64,000 bases of DNA from Octopus sinensis (Eukaryota), in NCBI RefSeq assembly GCF_006345805.1, contig NC_043001.1, positions 60,760,001 through 60,824,000 on the forward strand, written 5' to 3'. A model generated the notes under the pieces. It was not told the DNA's origin, made no database searches, and saw only the letters and a list, made by a program, of their open reading frames with translations. The translations under genes and the position numbers were made by a program. Positions 10,551-59,059 of the stretch are shown in pieces. How positions within the stretch are numbered: the stretch's first letter is position 1; every line of letters starts with the position of its first letter.

Positions 10551-10825
10551 ATCTTATATAGGTGTGATCTTTCGTTATTTTTCCCGCTATACCTGTGTGA
10601 GTTATTTTTGAGTATGCATTGTCTGGGAGATTTTTCTTACAGTAGAAGAAATGGCTAAAATTTTTGGCTGCTATTTCTAAAAAGTTCGGTGTGTGGTAAA
10701 GTAAATTATTTTACTGAACCCTATTTTTATAATATATATTAATATATATATATACCGGAGTAAACACATAAATGTGAAACAAGGTGGAAAAATGAGTACT
10801 CAAATACCAGGTGTAGAGTAATATG

Positions 10826-20860: not shown

Positions 20861-21563
20861 TATATCAATAATAAAGGGTGATATTAATTAATTTAGAAAT
20901 AATCATTAATTTCACCAAGTAGGGTTCGGCATGTAAAAGACCCATTCAAGGAAGGTTTACGTAATACTAAGTAATTAATGGTTTAGCAACGATTTGCCTC
21001 ACCACACACCGAATTTAGAATTAGCAGTTAAAAAGTTTTCTACTTAAAAGGAGAGATCCCAGTAAAACCAAAGCACTTAAAAACCAATCGACGCAGGTAA
21101 AAGAGAAAGAAATGACTAAAATCATTCTATATTAAGTTACCTACGGACGTACGTTTCGGAGTTAGGTCATTGCAGAGCATAAAAATTAAATAATTATGTC
21201 TTACCTGACTATTTTCCCCCTCAGCGTAGGATACTTCAATTATAAATAATTGCATCTCAATTATTAATAATTGTGTATTAAATTTGAAGGCACTAGAAGA
21301 CATCACCTCAACTCATGGTATCAGAGCGAGCGTAAGCCTTACCAGTACCACGAAATTCAAAGGGTGAATGAAAGTAAGTCACCGTCCCCCTTCCGCCAGC
21401 GTGTTGCCAAAATAAGATGCTACAGTTTTTTTACTGGGATGAAATACAATTATCAATAATAAAGGGTGAAATTAATTAATTTAGAAATAAGCATTAATTT
21501 CACCAAGTAGAGTTCGACATGTAAAAGACCCATTCAAGGAAGGTTTAAGTAATACTAAGTAAA
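20861..21563 (-). mobile_element. pLTR/retrozyme-like unit (~590 bp plus a ~110 bp partial direct repeat) next to (TA)n
   Basis: tatcaataataaagggtga...gtaatactaagtaa occurs at 20861-20974 and 21451-21562; the unit contains a hammerhead at 21140-21230. Confidence 0.75.
21140..21230 (-). ncRNA. Type I hammerhead ribozyme (A9 read as G)
   Basis: Minus strand: cctacg CTGAGGG gga...tcc GAAA cgtacg TC cgtagg. Perfect 6 bp stem I, palindromic stem III, GUC site. Confidence 0.75.
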
Positions 21564-22328
21564 TAGTTGTATGAACTGTAAATAAGCAATAAATATGATT
21601 TGTAAAATAAGTATAAGTAACACATGGTGTCCCAAATTGAATGTGGTGTGGAAGTTTGGTTTCATTTTTTAAAGAATTGTAAGCATTCAAAGTATGCGTT
21701 CATTATATTGGGACACACTTACTAAATACGTTTTGGAATCAAAATTTATGTACGGTGATCGAAAAATTTTAACTGCAGAATTAAAATGCAGAATTATCGG
21801 AGTTATTGACATTGAAATTGTACATGGATCAAGAAAGTGCAATAATAATGTTTGGCAGTTGGAAACTGAGAGTAATGAAATGTGGAGTTAGGTCTGCTGA
21901 TCGTAAGAATCGAATATTAATCGCATCACTAAAAACTAACAACTGTACATGCAGGTGCTATGGGTTATTTATCTTTGGTGTTAAAAAAATTTATTATATG
22001 GGGTAGATATAATGATCCCTTCCATGGGCCGTATTATTGATTTTTTTCAACAATCTAAGTCAGTCACGAGGTTTACAGACATGAGTTCTAATCACGTGTT
22101 AATCTTAATCAAAATCAATAAAACGATGTAGGAGGAGTTAGCTAACAACGACACAAACACACACCGATTTTTCACACACACACACACCACACACATATAT
22201 ATATATATATATATATAAGACTTGTTAAAGACTTGTTTTATTTATATTTCCTGAGCGCCATACTAATACAATTGTTCGTTTGTTTTCCACGTGCCTTCGT
22301 CTTTTGTTTATTTTCATAAAGCTTCCCG

Positions 22329-26044: not shown

Positions 26045-26114
<70 letters not shown>

Positions 26115-26656
26115 TAAATTTACATATAGAGGGCATTATACATACATGCCAGAAGGCATTATACATACATGCCAAACGCTAAGAGGGACAATTAGTCATT
26201 TCTACCAAAAATATTACTAATCCCACCGAATGCAATTTTTCAAAGTAAGACATTTAAAAAATTGCATTCGGTGGGATAGTAATATTTTTGGTAGAAATGA
26301 CTAATTGTCCCTCTTAGCGTTTGGCATTGTATGTAATGCCTTCTGGCATGTATGTTTAATGCCCTCTATATATAAATTAATATGTTCAATAAGAAATAAT
26401 TATTTTCGAAATTTTTTCTCTTATGAGGTTTTTACGCTATCTACCTGACAATTCTTGTTAAGTCCTTATTAAGTAGTTGTCCTTAATTGCTAAATTTTTA
26501 TTCCGAAAAATCTTTTCCTCTCCCGAAATGCAATTCGTAAAAGTTTGCCATTTATCCGGGATAATATATGTAAACTCACCCATGTGCTTCGTTGATGTCG
26601 AGCAGTTAGCTGATCGGCTTAACGGGGCAGGGTCGTTGTTTATTTATAATAATTCA

Positions 26657-26702
26657 GGCCTGCTGATGAGTACGTAAGTATGAAATCACTGTGATACAGG
26701 TC
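26657..26702 (+). ncRNA. Minimal type I hammerhead ribozyme, copy 1
   Basis: ggcctg CTGATGA gtac-gtaa-gtat GAAA tcac-t-gtga TA caggtc. Confidence 0.9.
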
Positions 26703-27137
26703 TATATTTTTTTTAATGTCTTACTTTGAAAAATTGCATTCGGTGGGATTAATAATATTTTTGGTAGAAATGACTAATTGTCCCTCTTAGCGTTTGGCAT
26801 GTATGTATAATGCCTTCTGGCATGTATGTATAATGCCCTCTATATATAAATTAATATGTTCAATAAGAAATAATTATTTTCGAAATTTTTTCTCTTATGA
26901 GGTTTTTACGCTATCTACCTGACAATTTCTTGTTAAGTTTTCCTTATTAAGTAGTTGTCCTTAATTGCTAAATTTTTATTCCGAAAAAACTTTTCCTCTC
27001 CCGAAATGCAATTCGTAAAAGTTTGCCATTTATCCGGATGTAATATATGTAAACTCACCCATGTGCTTCGTTGATGTCGAGCAGTTAGCTGATCGGCTTA
27101 AGCGGGGCAGGGTCGTTGTTTATTTATAATACATTCA

Positions 27138-27183
27138 GGCCTGCTGATGAGTACGTAAGTATGAAATCACTGTGATACAGGTC
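27138..27183 (+). ncRNA. Minimal type I hammerhead ribozyme, copy 2
   Basis: Identical to 26657-26702. Confidence 0.9.
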
Positions 27184-27610
27184 TATATTTTTTTAAATGT
27201 CTTACTTTGAAAATTGCATTCGTGGGATTAATAATATTTTTGGTAGAAATGACTAATTGTCCTCTTAGCGTTTGGCATGTATGTATAATGCCTTCTGGCA
27301 TGTATGTATAATGCCCTCTATATAAAATTAATATGTTCAATAAGAAATAATTATTTTCGAAATTTTTTCTCTTATGAGGTTTTTACGCTATCTACCTGAC
27401 AATTTCTTGTTAAGTTTTCCTTATTAAGTAGTTGTCCTTAATTGCTAAATTTTTATTCCGAAAAAAACTTTTCCTCTCCCGAAATGCAATTCGTAAAAGT
27501 TTGCCATTTATCCGGATGTAATATAGTAAACTCACCCAGGCTTCGTTGATGTCGAGCAGTTAGCTGATCGGCTTAAGCGGGGCAGGGTCGTGTTTATTTA
27601 TATACATTCA

Positions 27611-27656
27611 GGCCTGCTGATGAGTACGTAAGTATGAAATCACTGTGATACAGGTC
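27611..27656 (+). ncRNA. Minimal type I hammerhead ribozyme, copy 3
   Basis: Identical to 26657-26702. Confidence 0.9.
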
Positions 27657-27922
27657 TATATTTTTTTAAATGTCTTACTTTGAAAATTGCATTCGGTGGG
27701 ATTAATAATATTTTTGGTAGAAATGACTAATTGTCCCTCTTAGCGTTTGGCATGTATGTATAATGCCTTCTGGCATGTATGTATAATGCCCTCTATATAT
27801 AAATTAATATGTTCAATAAGAAAAAATAAATTATTTTCGAAATTTTTTCTCTTATGAGTTTTTACGCTATCTACCTGACAATTTCTTGTTAAGTTCCTTA
27901 TTAAGTAGTTGTCCTTAATTGC

Positions 27923-27979
<57 letters not shown>

Positions 27980-36330: not shown

Positions 36331-36526
36331 ATCCAAACAAGAAAACACAGAAAAAACACAGCAAGGCGAGAACGTGGAATAATTAAAGTATTATTTGACG
36401 CTCAGGAAAGAAGGAAGGAGGCTTTAACGTTTCGAGTAGAGCTCTTCGTCGGAAACAAGGAGAAGGAAAGATCCCGAGAAGGGAAGACAGAGGAAAAAAT
36501 ATTTTTGCTGGTGGTGCTCAAGAGAT

Positions 36527-36568
<42 letters not shown>

Positions 36569-36862
36569 ATATATATATATTTCAACAATTGAGGGTAAAA
36601 TTAATTAATTATTAATCAATTTCACCAAGTATTCAGTATGCAAGGGACCATTTAAGGCGAATTCAAATTATTACATTATATAAAAGGGCTTAGTAAAATA
36701 ATTACTTTGCCGCATACTGAACTCACTAGAAATAGTAGCTAAAAAAACTTTTTTAAAACTATTTCTAATACTTAAAGAAAACCTCTCTCATATAGTGTTT
36801 GCTCAATTCAACCAACGAAAGTATGGGGGTAAAGACATTAAAAAATCAAATGCAAGGTTATT

Positions 36863-36914
36863 TGAGAACGTACGTTTCAAGATTAGTCAACTCGACATTT
36901 CTATCATCAGCTCA
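36863..36914 (-). ncRNA. Type I hammerhead ribozyme (copies at 37422-37473 with C3 mutated, and 37980-38031)
   Basis: Minus strand: tgag CTGATGA tagaaat-gtc-gagtt-gac-taatctt GAAA cgtacg TT ctca. Confidence 0.75.
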
Positions 36915-38204
36915 GAACTCCTTGGTTTGGATTTGAAAACACTGAAAGTGGGAGCATACCCTTTCGGCTTCTTATCGCTTCTGAAGATCTGCTCGAAACT
37001 AACAGTGCCAGCAAACTCAAATATGCAAGCGAAGAATTTCTGCTCTCCCCTTTCCACCAGCGTGGGTTAAAATCAGTAAACACTATGCTTTTTTCGGTAA
37101 AATCCGAGGCATTAATAGAGAGAGATGAATTATAATTTCAACAATTGAGGGTAAAATTAATTAATTATTAATCAATTTCACCAAGTATTCAGTATGCAAA
37201 GGGACCATTTAAGGCGAATTCAAATTATTACATTATATAAAAGGGCTTAGTAAAATAAATTACTTTGCCGCATACTGAACTCATTAGAAATAGTAGCTAA
37301 AAAAACTTTTTTAAAACTATTTCTAATACTTAAAGAAAACCTCTCTCATATAGTGTTTGCTCAATTCAACCCACGAAAGTATGGGGGTAAAGACATTAAA
37401 AAATCAAATGCAAAGGTTATTTGAGAACGTACGTTTCAAGATTAGTCAACTCGACATTTCTATCATCATCTCAGAACTCCTTGGTTTGGATTTGAAAACA
37501 CTGAAAGTGGGAGCATACCCTTTCGGCTTCTTATCGCTTCTGAAGATCTGCTCGAAACTAACAGTGCCAGCAAACTCAAATATGCAAGCGAAGAATTTCT
37601 GCTCTCCCCTTTCCACCAGCGTGGGTTAAAATCAGTAAACACTATGCTTTTTTCGGTAAAATCCGAGGCATTAAATAGAGAGAGATGAATTATAATTTCA
37701 ACAATTGAGGGTAAAATTAATTAATTATTAATCAATTCACCAAGTATTCAGTATGCAAAGGGACCATTTAAGGCGAATTCAAATTATTACATTATATAAA
37801 AGGGCTTAGTAAAATAATTACTTTGCCGCATACTGAACTCATTAGAAATAGTAGCTAAAAAAACTTTTTTAAAACTATTTCTAATACTTAAAGAAAACCT
37901 CTCTCATATAGTGTTTGCTCAATTCAACCCACGAAAGTATGGGGGTAAAAACATTAAAAAATCAAATGCAAAGGTTATTTGAGAACGTACGTTTCAAGAT
38001 TAGTCAACTCGACATTTCTATCATCAGCTCAGAACTCCTTGGTTTGGATTTGAAAACACTGGTGGAAAGGGGAGAGCAGAAATTCTTCGCTTGCATATTT
38101 GAGTTTGCTGGCACTGTTAGTTTCGAGCAGATCTTCAGAAGCGATAAGAAGCCGAAAGGGTATGCTCCCACATTCAGTGTTTTCAAATCCAAACCAAGGA
38201 GTTC

Positions 38205-38256
38205 TGAGCTGATGATAGAAATGTCGAGTTGACTAATCTTGAAACGTACGTTCTCA
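38205..38256 (+). ncRNA. Type I hammerhead ribozyme in the inverted segment
   Basis: Same motif as 36863-36914, on the plus strand. Confidence 0.75.
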
Positions 38257-38552
38257 AATAACCTTTGCATTTGATTTTTTAATGTCTTTACCCCCATACT
38301 TTCGTGGGTTGAATTGAGCAAACACTATATGAGAGAGGTTTTCTTTAAGTATTAGAAATAGTTTTAAAAAAGTTTTTTTTAGCTACTATTTCTAATGAGT
38401 TCAGTATGCGGCAAAGTAATTTATTTTACTAACCCCTTTTATATAATATATATATATATTATATATATATATATTATATATATATATATATAATATATTA
38501 TATATATATATATCTATATATATATATATTATATATATATATATATATACAT

Positions 38553-39292
38553 ATACGAAAGAAGGTTTAAATAAAATTTAAAAGATGTTTATTTACTTTA
38601 TACCGGTTTCACTCTTTGGAAAAGATTGTCAAAAGTAACATGTAGAAGTTTGGTTGCGTTAATTATTGGTTGTTACAATTACTACATTACGCATGCAGTC
38701 TTTGGTAACAGAGACATGTTAAGGACATAAAAATAATGTAAACCTTTTTGAACTCATAATATTCTGTACGTGTACACCAATATTTACTGAACTTTTTTAA
38801 TAATTCCTTCTGGAAATTATCTTGAGAATGTATAATATATTTGTTGTAATCTTTTGTGCCCAATATTTCAATGAGCTTGTTAAACTTTTTTATATTCTCA
38901 ACATGCTCTTGTCACCAAAGAATGTATATTTATATGAATTGTAGTACTCTGTGTCAACAAATATTCTGTGCATGTTTGAATATACAGATACAATACCAAT
39001 ACCAATATCAATTCCTCCTGGAAACTATCTTAAGCATGTCCTTGAGAATGTATATTTATGTAGTAATCTTTTGTGCCCAATATTTTAAGGAACTTGTTGA
39101 ACTTTTTTTATGTCCTTAACATGTCCCTGTTACCAAAGACTGTATATATGTAATGTAGCAATTTGTAACAACCAATAATTAACGCAACCAAACTTCTACA
39201 TGTTACTTTTGACAATCTTTCTCCAAAGAGTGAAACCGGTAAAGTAAATATACATCTTTTAAATTGCATTTTCAAACCTTCTTTTGTATATA
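38553..39292 (+). mobile_element. pLTR-like unit with ~180 bp inverted arms, each carrying a variant hammerhead
   Basis: 38553-38733 is mirrored by ~39105-39292; the interior has short direct duplications. Confidence 0.8.
39203..39247 (+). ncRNA. Minimal hammerhead with U3-A8 core variant (mirror copy at 38593-38638, minus strand)
   Basis: ttactt TTGACAA tcttt-ctcc-aaaga-gt GAAA ccgg TA aagtaa. Perfect 6 bp stem I, palindromic stem III. Confidence 0.7.
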
Positions 39293-54086: not shown

Positions 54087-57000
54087 AGAAGGCGGCTGGA
54101 CGTGTAAGAAGAGAAGGCGGCTGGACGTGACAGAGGATGGATGTATTTTTACGATGCTCTGAACTGGCAACAGCGAACCCAGCAGGTCAACTGTAGAAAA
54201 CTGGAAGATCTACTGTTTTCTGTAAGTAATTTGAATTACCCTCAAAATAAGTAAAAAAAACAAAAAACTTACATATCTACAGCTCATACAAACGTACACC
54301 TAACAAGAAAAATTAGAAACATAAATATCTCCAATTCTGTGTGAACATTTACATTTAGTCGTCTCTCATGACTATAAGAATGTGTAAAATTGCCTTTTAA
54401 ATTACCTTTTATTGTAACAACACAATTAAATGCACGATAAAAAGTTATGGAATTAAGCACCTACTACTATATACATACAACTGAATTCAGAAATTTAAAA
54501 ATATATACATAACATTGAACTCAGAAAGTTATTTAAAAAAAAGAAAAAAAAAAAAAACTTCGACGAAAACATCAGATAATATGTGTGAGTGAATATACAT
54601 ATATATACATATACATATGCATGTGGTGAAGAAGAAAAGAGAACGGGAAAAAAAAAATAAATAAATAAATAAATAAACGTAAACAGGTTTGACCTTTTAC
54701 TGACCATTAACGTCCTTTGTCTCCACCATCTATCGTGGCTATTTATAGACCCAAAGAACATGAATTCTTTAACCACCCATTCTCCAACACAATGGAGTGT
54801 TGATGGTGGCTGTGGCTACACATTGAAGATGATGATGGTGATGGTGATGTTGCTGATGATGGTGATGATTGTGAAGATGATAGTAATAACAATAACAACT
54901 GACAGATCCCGTCTTTTTCCCTTTCTTTTCGTTTCCTTCTCCGTATTTTATTCTCATTATTTCGAACTAATACAGACACAGTAAGCCTTGAAGAAAGGAA
55001 GAGGAGGAAAGGAGGAAAAAAAAAATGTCCGGAGATAAAACTATCAACAAAAAAAATACAGACGAATATAGATCTGCTAGTCTTAAGAAGCGGCGCTATG
55101 AGCAATGCTTACATCTAGTGAACCCTAAACTGACAGATCCATCTCCTAATATAAGAATGGATGCTCGTCATGCTTCAAGATCAACAAATTAAACAATAAA
55201 CCGCATTGGTCATTGCGCGGATTACAAAAGACCACGTACCCGAAAATTGAACCAAATCCTGATTGAAAAATCAGTTACTGGATCAAATCTTCCCAACACA
55301 CAGGAGCTGGACGAACCCCACAACCGGAATATTCCAACAGATGGCCATCCATGCTCATCACCAAATAATCAAAAGAAAAAGAAGGAAAAATGGTCTAGGG
55401 AAGATAATAAAGAAGTTCTTGAGGCCTTCTACCATGCCATATATTTCCCCACAGATAAGTCTAGCACTGTACAAGCATACTTAAACTGGAGACAGAAACA
55501 CTCTGAAGTAAGACCCTACATAGACAGTAACAAGCTTGCCAATGTTAGAAGAAACATTATAAAAAAGAAATTACTGACTGAAGTAGAGATTGATCAGGTT
55601 AGACAAGCAATATCGGATAAAATGAACGAAGCTGCAGCTAGAGAAGATAATACAGAGGAAATGATTATAGACCAGCCCAGGGCGGATAAAAACGAAGAGA
55701 GGATTGAAAGAGTTAGTATAAGTGATAGGCAAAGTGAAATACGCCCTGAACCAATCATAAACACTAAGACAGATGAGCATCAAATAAATAAAGAAAGTCA
55801 CACAAATATTGACCCAACAGAACTACATGAGCTAAAAAATCAAATCATGATTGAATGGCTGAAAATTAAAGAAACCAGCATGGATGAGCGTGATACACTT
55901 CCTAAAATCCGCAACTCTAACCAAAACATGAAAATAATTGGTAAAATCCGGCTTGCACTTAAGGATATAATTTCAGTTAATGATGTTGATATCACAAACC
56001 TCAACCACCTATACTACGCATCCGCGAAAATCTCAACGATCCTATGTGGTGTAAAGATTAGAAAACGGCAACAGTCCCACAAAAAGCCTTCTTGGCAAGA
56101 GCGTCTGCAACAACAAATTAAAGTATTTAGATCTGACATTGAATATTTGAAAAACCTTAAGGCTCACAAGACTACCAAACGTACAAAAACCCAAAAATTA
56201 CTGAAAAAATACAATATGAAAACTATACTTGATATTGATGCCACCATAGAAACCATCAAACAAAAGGTATCTGCCAAAGCTGCCCGCATAGCGAAGTATG
56301 AAAAGCGTGTTAGATTTTTCAAGGACAACAACATGTTCAAAAATAACACCAAGAATTTTTACAGGAAGATAGGAAAAACAGCGTTTACTGCAGGGTCTGT
56401 ACCATCAAAAGAAGAAGTGCAGAGATTTTGGAATAAAATCTGGGCAGAAGAAAAAACACACAACGAAAAGGCCCCCTGGGTTGACAGAATATCTACAGAA
56501 CTGGACCCCTTAGAAGAGCAAAAGTGGGAGGGTGTCAAGGTAGAAGATATAAGATCTGCTCTCAGGAGGTCAAGCAAATGGAAGTCTCCAGGAAAGGATA
56601 AAATTCCTAACTTCTGGCTGAATGCCTTCCCAGAGAGCCATGAACTGCTAACAGAACTGTACAATGATGTTTTGCAACACCCTAGTAGGATGCCTCCTTG
56701 GCTAGTTAATGGGTTAACATTCCTGCTTCCAAAAAGTGAAGAAACAAATGAACCAAAAACTATAGACCCATAACCTGCTTAACAACTATGTACAAAACAC
56801 TAACATCTGTCCTGACGGAATATACCTATAGTTTTTTAACAGACAGCAGCATATTCCCTAATGAACAGAAAGGATGTAAACGTGGATCCTACGGCTGTAA
56901 AGACCAACTACTCATCAATAAGATGATCTTAGAAGATTGTCACAAACGACACAAAAACTTATCAATAGCCTGGATAGACTATAAAAAGGCTTTTGATAGC

Positions 57001-59059
57001 CTACCACATAGCTGGATTAGGAAATGCCTTGAAATGTATAAGATAGCACCAACTCTGCGAAACTTCTTGACTGTAAGTATGAGATCATGGAGAACCACAC
57101 TAACTCTGAACAGTGACAGTGAATCCCTAAATGCTGGTGATGTAAAAATTTCGTGTGGCATTTTCCAGGGTGACTCACTGTCACCACTCCTCTTTTGTTT
57201 ATCCTTAATACCTCTCTCAAAGCTGCTCAATGACGCGCAGTACGGGTATAAAATGTTTGATAAAAATATAAATCATCTCGTTTACATGGATGATTTAAAG
57301 CTTTTTGCAAAAAATGATCAACAACTCAAGGGCTTACTAGCGATAGTCAAACAATTCAGTGACGACATCAGAATGCAATTCGGCCTCGATAAATGTGCAA
57401 AGGCTACCTTTATCAAAGGAAAAATGACAGAAACATCTAACGTTAACCTTGACCAACAGAATGTCGTAAAAGAACTAGACCCAGCGGAGAGCTACAAGTA
57501 CCTAGGGGTAATTGAAGGGAACGGAATAAGGCATTCAGAGATGAAGGAAAGGATCAGGAGAGAATGCTATCGAAGAGTGAGAGCAATACTCAAGACAGAG
57601 CTGAATGCAAGAAACAGGATCGAAGCAATCAATGCATTAGCTATACCAGTCGTGACTTACAGTTTCAATATTGTTAACTGGTCAATTACTGAAATATGTC
57701 AGCTCGACAGAAAAATAAGGAAACTGTTGACAATGCATAGAATGCACCACCCTAAGGCAGATACAGAACGACTCTATCTGCCAAGAAAAGAGGGAGGCCG
57801 TGGTCTTTTGCAACTGGCAATAACAATGAAGATTGCTACAATTGGCCTAGACACCTACCTGAAAAACTCTGAGGACTGGATGTTAAAACTTGTCTCAAAA
57901 CATGAAAACAAGAAAGCATCATACTCAGTCACAAAACAGGCAAAGGAATATCTAAGTGAATTCCGAATACAACCAATTTCGGAATTAGAGATAGACATAC
58001 AAGAAACAAGCACAGAAAAAGCTAGGCGCATGAAAACCCGTGCCAAAACTGCGGCCTTAGATATTCTGAATAATAAATGGCAAGAAAAACCTCTCTATGG
58101 CAAATACCCAAAGAGAGCGAATAATGCAGATATCGACAAAGCCCTGACCCATCAATGGCTAATGGCCTCTGGCTTAAAATCTGAAACAGAAGGGGTTTAT
58201 CATAGCAGCTCAAGATCAATGCCTACCAACAAGAAACTACCAGGCCAACATATTAAAGATCAGAAGCAGTCCAACGTGTCGTGTATGCAAGCAACAAAAT
58301 GAAACCATTGACCATGTGGTCTCCAAGTGCAGTCTTCTAGCGCCTACAGAGTATCTCAACAGGCACGATAGAGCTGCACAATATATTCACTGGGTAATCT
58401 GTAAAAACTGGATTTGCCCCATGAAAAAAACTGGTGGGAACACAAACCACCCCCAGTGCTTGAAAATGACCACATCTCACTCCTCTGGAACTTCACCATT
58501 CAAACTGACAGGAAGATAGATGCAAATAGGCCAGACATCATATTGAAAGACTTCAAACAAAGAACATGCCTCCTCATTGATATGACTGTCCCAATCGATA
58601 TAAACGTATCTGTCAGGACCTACCAAAAACTGAGCAAATATAAAGATCTTGAAATAGAAATCAGCAAAATGTGGAAGCTGAAGACTAAAACAATACCTGT
58701 TGTCATAGGTGCCCTGGGAATGATAGCAAAAGGGGCTGATAGCTACCTAACTCAGATACCAGGAAACCCAAAAGTGGCAGAAGTTCAAAAGATAGTGCTC
58801 ATGGGAACTGCTCATATCCTACGCAAAATACTCTCTATGTAACCTCAAGGTTTAAACAACCATAATTTTCGGTTTAAAAAAAAAAAAAAAAAAAAAACTT
58901 TTTTTTTGTTAGACATTCATTAGTACAACATCCCCACCCCCAAATATATGGCACACTAGGCATAACAACAACATGAACTTCCAACCCTGTTGTCTCTTGA
59001 GGTCTCTGGGTGAGACTTGGAGCCAACTTGTACAAATATAAAGCAAAAGTCAAACATAG
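54086..59059 (+). mobile_element. Apparently full-length R4/Dong-clade non-LTR retrotransposon in (TAA)n
   Basis: Single long RT-CCHC-RLE ORF, ~220 bp 3' UTR running into (AAT)n at 59060, and an (AAT)n tract upstream. The 5' boundary is inferred. Confidence 0.85.
55247..58842 (+). CDS. Reverse transcriptase / zinc knuckle / restriction-like endonuclease polyprotein, with three single-base frameshifts
   Basis: WKSPGKDKIPNFWL, EQKGC, WIDYKKAFDSLPH, GIFQGDSLSPLLF, YMDDLKLF, YKYLG, CRVCKQQNETIDHVVSKC, RHD, RPDIILKD...LIDMTVP...KLSKY. Shifts at ~56757, ~58194 and ~58406; no in-frame stops seen. The true start is uncertain. Confidence 0.9.

What the first reader, a model, noticed from the sequence alone, without database searches (positions are those of the whole stretch)
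36581..38447. Second, unrelated ribozyme array (~558 bp units) with a long inverted copy
Seen: 2.65 tandem units plus a ~390 bp inversion joined at ~38060 through a 2 nt microhomology (ct). It holds four hammerheads, three minus and one plus; the middle tandem copy has C3 changed. Stem II opens with a U-U mismatch and the site is GUU. Inference: either strand's transcript contains a ribozyme and long dsRNA, a likely ADAR or small-RNA substrate. The repeated 90-105 aa ORFs here are by-products.
Basis: partly seen in the sequence, partly recalled or inferred. Interest (0 to 1): 0.7.

Follow-up and report, generated by a model that had tools for sequence, protein, structure and literature searches.

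The report
Hammerhead repeat inserted Penelope-style, two arms
This is one of more than a thousand scattered copies of a protein-free 558-base repeat with a predicted self-cutting RNA motif; its mirror-image arm is the family's usual insertion shape, likely made by a Penelope-type retrotransposon enzyme, so it is a new example of a known kind whose junctions hint at how such elements are copied.

Summary
In detail: 2.65 tandem units, a 389-bp inverted arm and four type I hammerhead motifs, one with C3A. The microhomology is 3 nt (CTG), not 2. The inversion is not special to this locus. The unit is a dispersed family (1,329 and 992 exact end junctions) sitting in (TA)n. Of 87 two-armed chromosome-C1 insertions, 85 start one arm at unit position 1 (A) and the other near 94 (B); inner junctions vary. 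This is the tandem/inverted, one-tailed shape described for Penelope-like elements, so it is best filed as a non-LTR retrozyme, likely Penelope-mobilised. No partner element was found. Family statistics add mechanism: both arms stop at about the same point in 29 of 47 short insertions and 0 of 38 long ones. First-pass ends are 3.8-fold enriched at the predicted cut site and later passes are not, although a second peak at 225-260 weakens this. That suggests two primings on one RNA, with cut linear and circular or uncut templates. Cleavage, circles, transcription and ADAR or small-RNA activity are untested. The scan reported the same kind of element before, in this genome and others.

The parts
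36530..36580 (.). Left (TA)n target microsatellite
36580..37135 (-). Unit 1 of arm A; begins at fixed end A (unit position 1). The hammerhead-sense RNA is the minus strand
37136..37695 (-). Unit 2 of arm A (560 bp, used as reference unit)
37696..38061 (-). Partial unit 3 of arm A (unit positions 1-366), truncated at the junction
38059..38061 (.). Inversion junction, 3-nt microhomology CTG; this junction occurs once in the assembly
38059..38447 (+). Inverted arm B (unit positions about 97-484); outer end at fixed end B
36863..36914 (-). Type I hammerhead motif, intact core, predicted cut after 36867
37422..37473 (-). Type I hammerhead motif with C3A (2 of 316 family passes have A here; mutation or assembly error)
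37980..38031 (-). Type I hammerhead motif, intact core
38205..38256 (+). Type I hammerhead motif in the inverted arm, intact core, predicted cut after 38252
37136..37380 (-). A-B domain (unit 1-245), conserved at about 73% with sister families; likely the RT/endonuclease recognition region (inferred)
37350..37645 (-). Long-range stem: unit 215-240 (37350-37375) with unit 485-510 (37620-37645), predicted in the monomer fold
38440..38555 (.). Right (TA)n target microsatellite

Best explanation
This locus is one insertion of a dispersed, protein-free, hammerhead-bearing 558-bp element (a non-LTR retrozyme) that is likely copied into (TA)n microsatellites by a Penelope-like RT-endonuclease acting in trans. 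Shown: a dispersed family, two fixed outer ends used one each, variable inner junctions with short microhomology or short inserts, (TA)n flanks, and both arms reading as the complement of the hammerhead-sense strand from their outer ends. Inferred: the enzyme nicks both target strands and primes two cDNAs at two internal sites of the RNA (A, unit 1; B, unit about 94); the two cDNAs grow towards each other and are end-joined, giving the head-to-head inversion. Inferred with less confidence: both cDNAs are made on one RNA; a linear, often ribozyme-cut RNA gives short symmetric palindromes, while a circular or uncut multimeric RNA gives long asymmetric arrays such as this one. The long duplex is a by-product.
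For: Family size: 1,329 A-end and 992 B-end exact (TA)n junctions, 1,497 internal unit junctions, 1,971 exact copies of the hammerhead 3' half; reversed-pattern controls 0. Of 87 two-armed, end-anchored C1 insertions, 85 are A+B, 2 A+A, 0 B+B; 122 distinct junction coordinates among 125 A+B insertions; both flanks TA-rich in 153 of 183. In 25 of 85, neither arm can be a copy of the other, so two primings are needed. Arms of one insertion differ by a median 0.5% against 2.7-3.8% for other insertions; 31 insertion-private alleles are shared by both arms (187 in one arm only). Inner ends lie within 20 nt of each other in 29 of 85 (permutation mean 5.8, max 17 in 20,000): 29 of 47 when both arms are under one pass, 0 of 38 otherwise. 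Counting each insertion once, 16 of 65 first-pass ends fall at unit 271-305 (cut predicted at 290/291; ratio 3.8, p 4e-5) against 2 of 56 in later passes. Core intact in 292 of 316 passes, with variation at N7, N17 (U or A) and loops. A sister family shows the same rule (13 of 18 two-armed loci A+B, 5 with one end elsewhere, none A+A or B+B; counted by eye). Literature: tandem plus inverted 5'-truncated copy, tail at one end, (TA)n bias (PMC8557442, passages); purified PLE protein cuts and extends both strands and starts RT at two internal sites that bound the tail (PMC11167929, parts 1-2 of 4). Young intact RT + GIY-YIG ORFs ending in (TA)n exist in this genome.
Against: No autonomous partner found: neither BLAST nor an A-B profile matched the ends of any PLE examined (42 loci L133-L174, 4 retrozyme-anchored loci and 12 further stretches, partly overlapping, out of 5,029 first-look GIY-YIG candidates). 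The A-B distance (about 93-98 nt) is longer than the 30-40-bp tail in print. A second first-pass peak at unit 225-260 (16 of 65, ratio 3.0, p 4e-4) has no cut site and coincides with a predicted stem; the peak near the cut is carried more by older copies. 77 of 128 insertions read through the first hammerhead. The hammerhead lacks the conserved G10.1-C11.1 pair (U-U 224, A-A 47 of 316) and is not in the predicted minimum-energy fold. Target-site duplications were seen in only 4 of 179 insertions (shuffles 0-2). Arm similarity could also come from one source locus or gene conversion. B-ahead-of-A bias in symmetric junctions is weak (12 vs 3, p 0.035 on C1; 14 vs 5, p 0.064 in all).
Confidence: 0.8

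Rival explanations
1. Same element, but the inverted arm is made by one priming followed by fold-back (self-priming) synthesis and endonuclease resolution at A or B, as proposed for rotifer Penelopes; multi-unit arms come from copying tandem read-through transcripts, with no circle and no role for cleavage.
For: Some junctions sit on small palindromes (297/297, 304/304, 216/216). Self-priming was proposed from palindromic junctions (PMC3846280, passages). Hammerhead mutants did not affect PAc insertion in vitro (PMC11167929). 8 of 9 Xenopus retrozyme dimers did not cleave (bioRxiv 10.64898/2026.07.22.740005).
Against: In 25 of 85 A+B insertions neither arm is contained in the other, and in 12 of 29 symmetric ones arm B goes more than 3 nt beyond arm A, which fold-back from A cannot give. 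Arms reach 7.5 kb, while repeated 5' truncation of linear transcripts would shorten arrays (inference).
Confidence: 0.12
2. The locus is a functional host dsRNA/ribozyme module kept as an ADAR or small-RNA substrate.
For: A transcript across the junction is predicted to form a very stable hairpin. Penelope copies give small RNAs in a rotifer (PMC3846280, passages).
Against: It is a young copy (99%) among more than a thousand, with a junction found once and the generic family shape. Nothing marks it as selected, and its middle core is mutated as assembled.
Confidence: 0.04
3. The inversion is a long-read fold-back chimera or assembly artefact.
For: No listed contig spanned this exact junction in the 4 runs laid (contigs break in such a repeat and most pieces were not listed). 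The units carry homopolymer indels that look like read errors.
Against: The junction is not a mirror point (unit 366 joins unit 484), the inverted arm ends at the family's fixed B end, and the two flanks differ. Contigs of runs X1, X6 and X7 hold 10 other direct-to-inverted joints of this family (table 5).
Confidence: 0.04

Closest known systems
Metazoan non-LTR retrozymes (Cervera and de la Pena 2020, PMC7229834, passages seen; Li, Clavereau and Pollet 2026, bioRxiv 10.64898/2026.07.22.740005, parts 1-3 of 5 read)
   Same: Non-coding, low-GC tandem units each with a type I hammerhead; dispersed, many copies; proposed to be non-autonomous Penelope derivatives. Unit length falls in the 51-972 bp range of the preprint.
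   Different: Longer than the 150-450 bp of the 2020 paper. Hammerhead has a 4-bp proximal stem I and no G10.1-C11.1 pair. Cleavage and circles not shown here. The passages and parts seen do not describe fixed A/B ends or inverted arms ('inverted' 0 times in PMC7229834). No pLTR donor found. The preprint's supplements could not be seen; it sampled no mollusc.
EN+ Penelope-like elements: pLTR tandem/inverted insertions with a tail (Craig et al. 2021, PMC8557442, passages; Arkhipova et al. 2013, PMC3846280, passages; Frangieh et al. 2024, PMC11167929, parts 1-2 of 4)
   Same: Partial tandems, inverted 5'-truncated copy, extension at one end only, (TA)n bias, microhomology junctions, two RT start sites, hammerhead in the repeat.
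   Different: No RT or GIY-YIG ORF. Tail about 93-98 nt instead of 30-40. Either arm can run for many units.
PLE minimal/atypical hammerheads (Cervera and de la Pena 2014, PMC4209133, parts 1-2 of 4)
   Same: Short stem I, long stem II, small palindromic stem III suited to a dimeric fold; the forced double hammerhead is 8 kcal/mol above the minimum fold against 16 for one monomeric motif. That paper already notes opposite-strand pairs 100-700 bp apart and proposes circles as templates for more-than-unit copies.
   Different: U-U (or A-A, G-U) replaces the conserved G10.1-C11.1 pair.

Membership tests
Non-LTR retrozyme | Tandem units each with a type I hammerhead | tested here: met
   4 motifs here, 3 with intact core; 292 of 316 family passes intact. 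This copy lacks two consecutive intact tandem units, the preprint's criterion for 'active'.
Non-LTR retrozyme | No protein coding, GC under 50% | tested here: met
   Only 90-105 aa ORFs; the 3 frames scanned have no Pfam match; GC about 0.32.
Non-LTR retrozyme | Dispersed mobile copies | tested here: met
   many chromosomes, top hits 98-100% identical, over 1,300 end junctions.
Non-LTR retrozyme | Self-cleavage of the RNA | not testable with these tools
   Only indirect: core conservation and end enrichment near the site; G10.1-C11.1 absent.
Non-LTR retrozyme | Expressed as circular RNA | not testable with these tools
   Contigs cannot tell a circle from a genomic tandem. Monomer folds stably (z -5.8).
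Non-LTR retrozyme | Target-site duplications longer than 4 bp when present | tested here: inconclusive
   4 of 179 with a 10-nt or longer non-TA duplication, shuffles 0-2; (TA)n hides the rest.
Non-LTR retrozyme | No LTR, PBS or PPT | not tested
   No LTR layout is seen in the loci; PBS and PPT were not searched.
Penelope-dependent non-autonomous element | Partial tandem plus inverted truncated copy, tail at one end | tested here: met
   85 of 87 two-armed C1 insertions are A+B; tail is 93-98 nt rather than 30-40.
Penelope-dependent non-autonomous element | Microsatellite (TA)n targeting | tested here: met
   Both flanks TA-rich in 153 of 183; 140 of the 196 insertions were picked by a TA-anchored end pattern, so one flank is selected.
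Penelope-dependent non-autonomous element | Sequence shared with the pLTR of an autonomous PLE | tested here: inconclusive
   No match among the PLE loci examined, a small part of 5,029 candidates.
Autonomous Penelope-like element | ORF with RT and GIY-YIG endonuclease | tested here: not met
   No such ORF; PLE proteins against a unit dimer gave best E 0.23.

The most novel reading that the evidence does not exclude
The family's junctions record the Penelope insertion mechanism in vivo: an enzyme dimer loads on one RNA at two fixed sites about 95 nt apart, each subunit primes from one nicked target strand, and the two RTs run in convoy. On a ribozyme-cut linear RNA they stop together and leave a short palindrome; on a ligated circle they roll past the cut site and leave long unequal arrays like this one. 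The genome would then show both in vivo hammerhead cleavage and circular-template reverse transcription.
Probability: 0.35. Interest if true: 0.7.

Novelty: new member of a known kind. Interest (0 to 1): 0.42.

Why it matters
The locus itself is an ordinary copy. The family matters because the origin of Penelope tandem/inverted insertions is called undefined (PMC8557442, passages) and the link between retrozymes and Penelope enzymes rests on co-occurrence and pLTR similarity (bioRxiv 2026). A 558-nt RNA with two mapped start sites, a strict one-of-each rule and two product classes gives a small, directly testable substrate for that question. I found no paper on cephalopod retrozymes ('hammerhead', 'retrozyme' and 'ribozyme' 0 times in PMC13282606) or on the one-of-each rule, within an open-access library only. 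The organism is probably an octopus; that is my recall of its SINE and genome size, not a tool result.

Tried and rejected
Rfam at gathering thresholds: no hit in the window. Sequencing runs: 20 of 24 listed rows hold part of the stretch; no RNA holder listed, which says nothing on expression. Contigs of 4 runs cover the stretch, but no listed piece spans it or this junction; independent-read support for this exact junction is left open. Partner hunt: GIY-YIG search, ORF and end inspection, BLAST and profile search found no PLE sharing the ends. One-armed insertions followed by non-TA sequence gave no shared internal body (16 inner flanks compared); PLE ORFs beside L055 and L099 are neighbours, not continuations. 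Two-sequence consensus fold misaligned the permuted units outside the A-B domain; only that domain was used. TSD scan weak. The first end-hazard test counted symmetric arms twice and was redone per insertion. The windows 271-300 and 271-305 were set around the predicted cut after I had seen the ends listed, so the p-values are optimistic. Rows dropped before counts: 13 of 196 insertions cut by a locus edge or gap, one sister-family locus (L155), adjacent duplicates, and for arm comparisons pairs overlapping under 80 nt. PMC9977147 (passages) added nothing; one search was seen as a listing only, so the expected rate loss from U10.1-U11.1 and GUU is recalled, not cited. Rejected: coding function of the ORFs; local satellite amplification (dispersed, fixed ends); viroid-like replicon with ribozymes in both polarities (the plus-strand motif is only the inverted copy).

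Full report
Observation. Three units start at 36580, 37136 and 37696 (2.65 units, about 99% identical) and an inverted arm runs 38059-38447; both ends run into (TA)n. A motif scan of both strands finds four type I hammerheads, three on minus and one on plus, with U-U at the base of stem II, an 8-nt palindrome as stem III and GUU at the site; the middle tandem copy has C3A. Rfam finds none of them. The junction joins unit position 366 to 484 through CTG, 3 nt rather than 2. The 90-105 aa ORFs are short, and the three frames scanned have no Pfam match.

What it is. The window lies on contig C5 of a 2.72-Gb genome (probably an octopus, by recall). The unit is a dispersed family: exact patterns count 1,329 junctions of (TA)n with unit position 1 (end A), 992 with position about 94 (end B), 1,497 internal unit junctions and 1,971 copies of the hammerhead 3' half, with reversed controls at 0. 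I parsed 196 distinct insertions from the fetched loci, 183 complete; 140 were picked by an end pattern on C1. Copies range from 84 to 100% identity to this unit. In that C1 set, 85 of 87 two-armed insertions with both ends classed have one A and one B end, 2 have A+A and none B+B. Inner junctions are nearly all different (122 coordinate pairs among 125), mostly with 0-3 nt overlap or short inserts. This locus's junction occurs once in the assembly. So the inversion is the family's normal insertion product. Contigs of three runs hold ten other direct-to-inverted joints, which argues against a systematic artefact; this exact junction was not confirmed in independent reads.

How it likely works. 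From each outer end, the arm reads as the complement of the hammerhead-sense strand, as expected if each nicked target strand primes cDNA on that RNA. In 25 of 85 insertions neither arm can be a copy of the other, so two primings are needed; simple fold-back is not enough. Arms of one insertion are nearly identical (median 0.5% against 2.7-3.8% to other insertions; 31 private alleles shared, 187 not), which fits one RNA or one source locus. Two product classes appear. When both arms are under one pass, 29 of 47 stop within 20 nt of each other; when either is longer, 0 of 38 do (29 of 85 overall; permutation mean 5.8, maximum 17). Counting each insertion once, first-pass ends are 3.8-fold enriched at unit 271-305, around the predicted cut at 290/291 (16 of 65), and later passes are not (2 of 56). 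Against this: a comparable peak at 225-260 (16 of 65) matches a predicted long-range stem rather than the cut, the window was chosen with the data in view, and 77 of 128 insertions read through the first hammerhead. The simplest reading is a linear RNA, often ribozyme-cut, for short palindromes and a circle or uncut multimer for long arrays (arms up to 7.5 kb). This locus is of the second class. Circle versus read-through multimer is not resolved.

The ribozyme. Core positions are conserved across subfamilies (292 of 316 passes intact; 1 of 11 core sites variable against 20% of the unit, too few sites to be a strong test), and variation falls at N7, N17 (U or A), loops and wobble pairs. But the conserved G10.1-C11.1 pair is missing (U-U 224, A-A 47, G-U 28), and the active fold is not the predicted minimum; a double hammerhead from two units costs about 8 kcal/mol against 16 for one monomeric motif. 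A weak, dimer-dependent ribozyme is expected, as reported for PLE hammerheads (PMC4209133, parts 1-2 of 4). C3A is seen in 2 of 316 passes and may be a mutation or an assembly error. The monomer folds stably (z -5.8), and the A-B domain is conserved, with paired changes, in a sister family in the same window.

Partner. The genome holds young intact RT + GIY-YIG elements that end in (TA)n, but none examined shares sequence with the unit. The Penelope link therefore rests on insertion anatomy, not on a found donor.

Comparison with what is known. Tandem plus inverted truncated copies, a tail at one end and (TA)n bias are described for PLEs (PMC8557442 and PMC3846280, passages). A purified PLE protein cuts and extends both strands and starts RT at two internal sites bounding the tail, and its hammerhead was dispensable in vitro (PMC11167929). 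Non-coding tandem hammerhead repeats are the animal non-LTR retrozymes (PMC7229834, passages), proposed to derive from PLEs (bioRxiv 10.64898/2026.07.22.740005, parts 1-3 of 5; supplements not visible). It works like a PLE-mobilised retrozyme, and meets the sequence criteria for that class; cleavage, circles and a donor pLTR are untested or unfound. Differences are a longer tail (93-98 nt), the atypical stem II base and the strict one-of-each rule, which I did not find stated in print. Earlier notes of this scan describe the same kind of element and the two fixed ends in other families, here and in other genomes; a look-up by this unit's sequence found none. I had reached my reading before opening them and do not count them as evidence.

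A read-through RNA would form a long duplex, but so would most insertions of the family; nothing here shows transcription, editing or small RNAs.

Verdict. Real feature; new member of a known kind; interest 0.42. The locus is ordinary, but the family's junction statistics make the open question of how Penelope inversions and tandems arise directly testable (novel reading probability 0.35, interest 0.7 if true).

Noticed in passing
window 20865-21565: Sister retrozyme family, 588-bp unit, about 73% alike in the A-B domain, same palindromic stem III but GUC site; 1,745 first-look candidates; ends at unit 1 and about 100 with the same one-of-each rule.
   Followed up: partly
window 10587-10732: Fragment of a third related family, starting at a B-like end next to (TA)n.
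   Followed up: partly
window 26112-27933: The 478-bp hammerhead array has no sequence likeness to this unit but the same layout: inverted arm, tandem arm, (TA)n ends.
   Followed up: partly
L163-L166, L171, L174: Young PLE family (RT + GIY-YIG ORF of 781 aa, 98-99% identical, CxxC linker) preceded by a second long ORF (479 aa, no Pfam match). It ends in (TA)n at two points about 35-40 nt apart and, read by eye, carries a U3-A8 hammerhead variant near its 3' end.
   Followed up: partly
window 10917, 33422, 39889; 36430-36460: Further solitary hammerhead-like motifs in other repeats (the last by eye), typical of PLE ends.
   Followed up: no
L025, L073, L148, L176: Junctions hold short tandem re-copies of neighbouring sequence, resembling templated inserts of microhomology-mediated end joining (label recalled).
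   Followed up: no
L200, L231: The two A+A exceptions; L200 is a compound insertion with an internal palindrome.
   Followed up: no
window 38561-39290: Separate element with long terminal inverted arms right of the insertion (e.g. 38621-38678 with 39163-39220, 100%), MITE-like by recall.
   Followed up: no
window 55193-58842: Frameshifted LINE-like ORFs (526, 516, 145 aa); label from motifs recalled, no family search.
   Followed up: no
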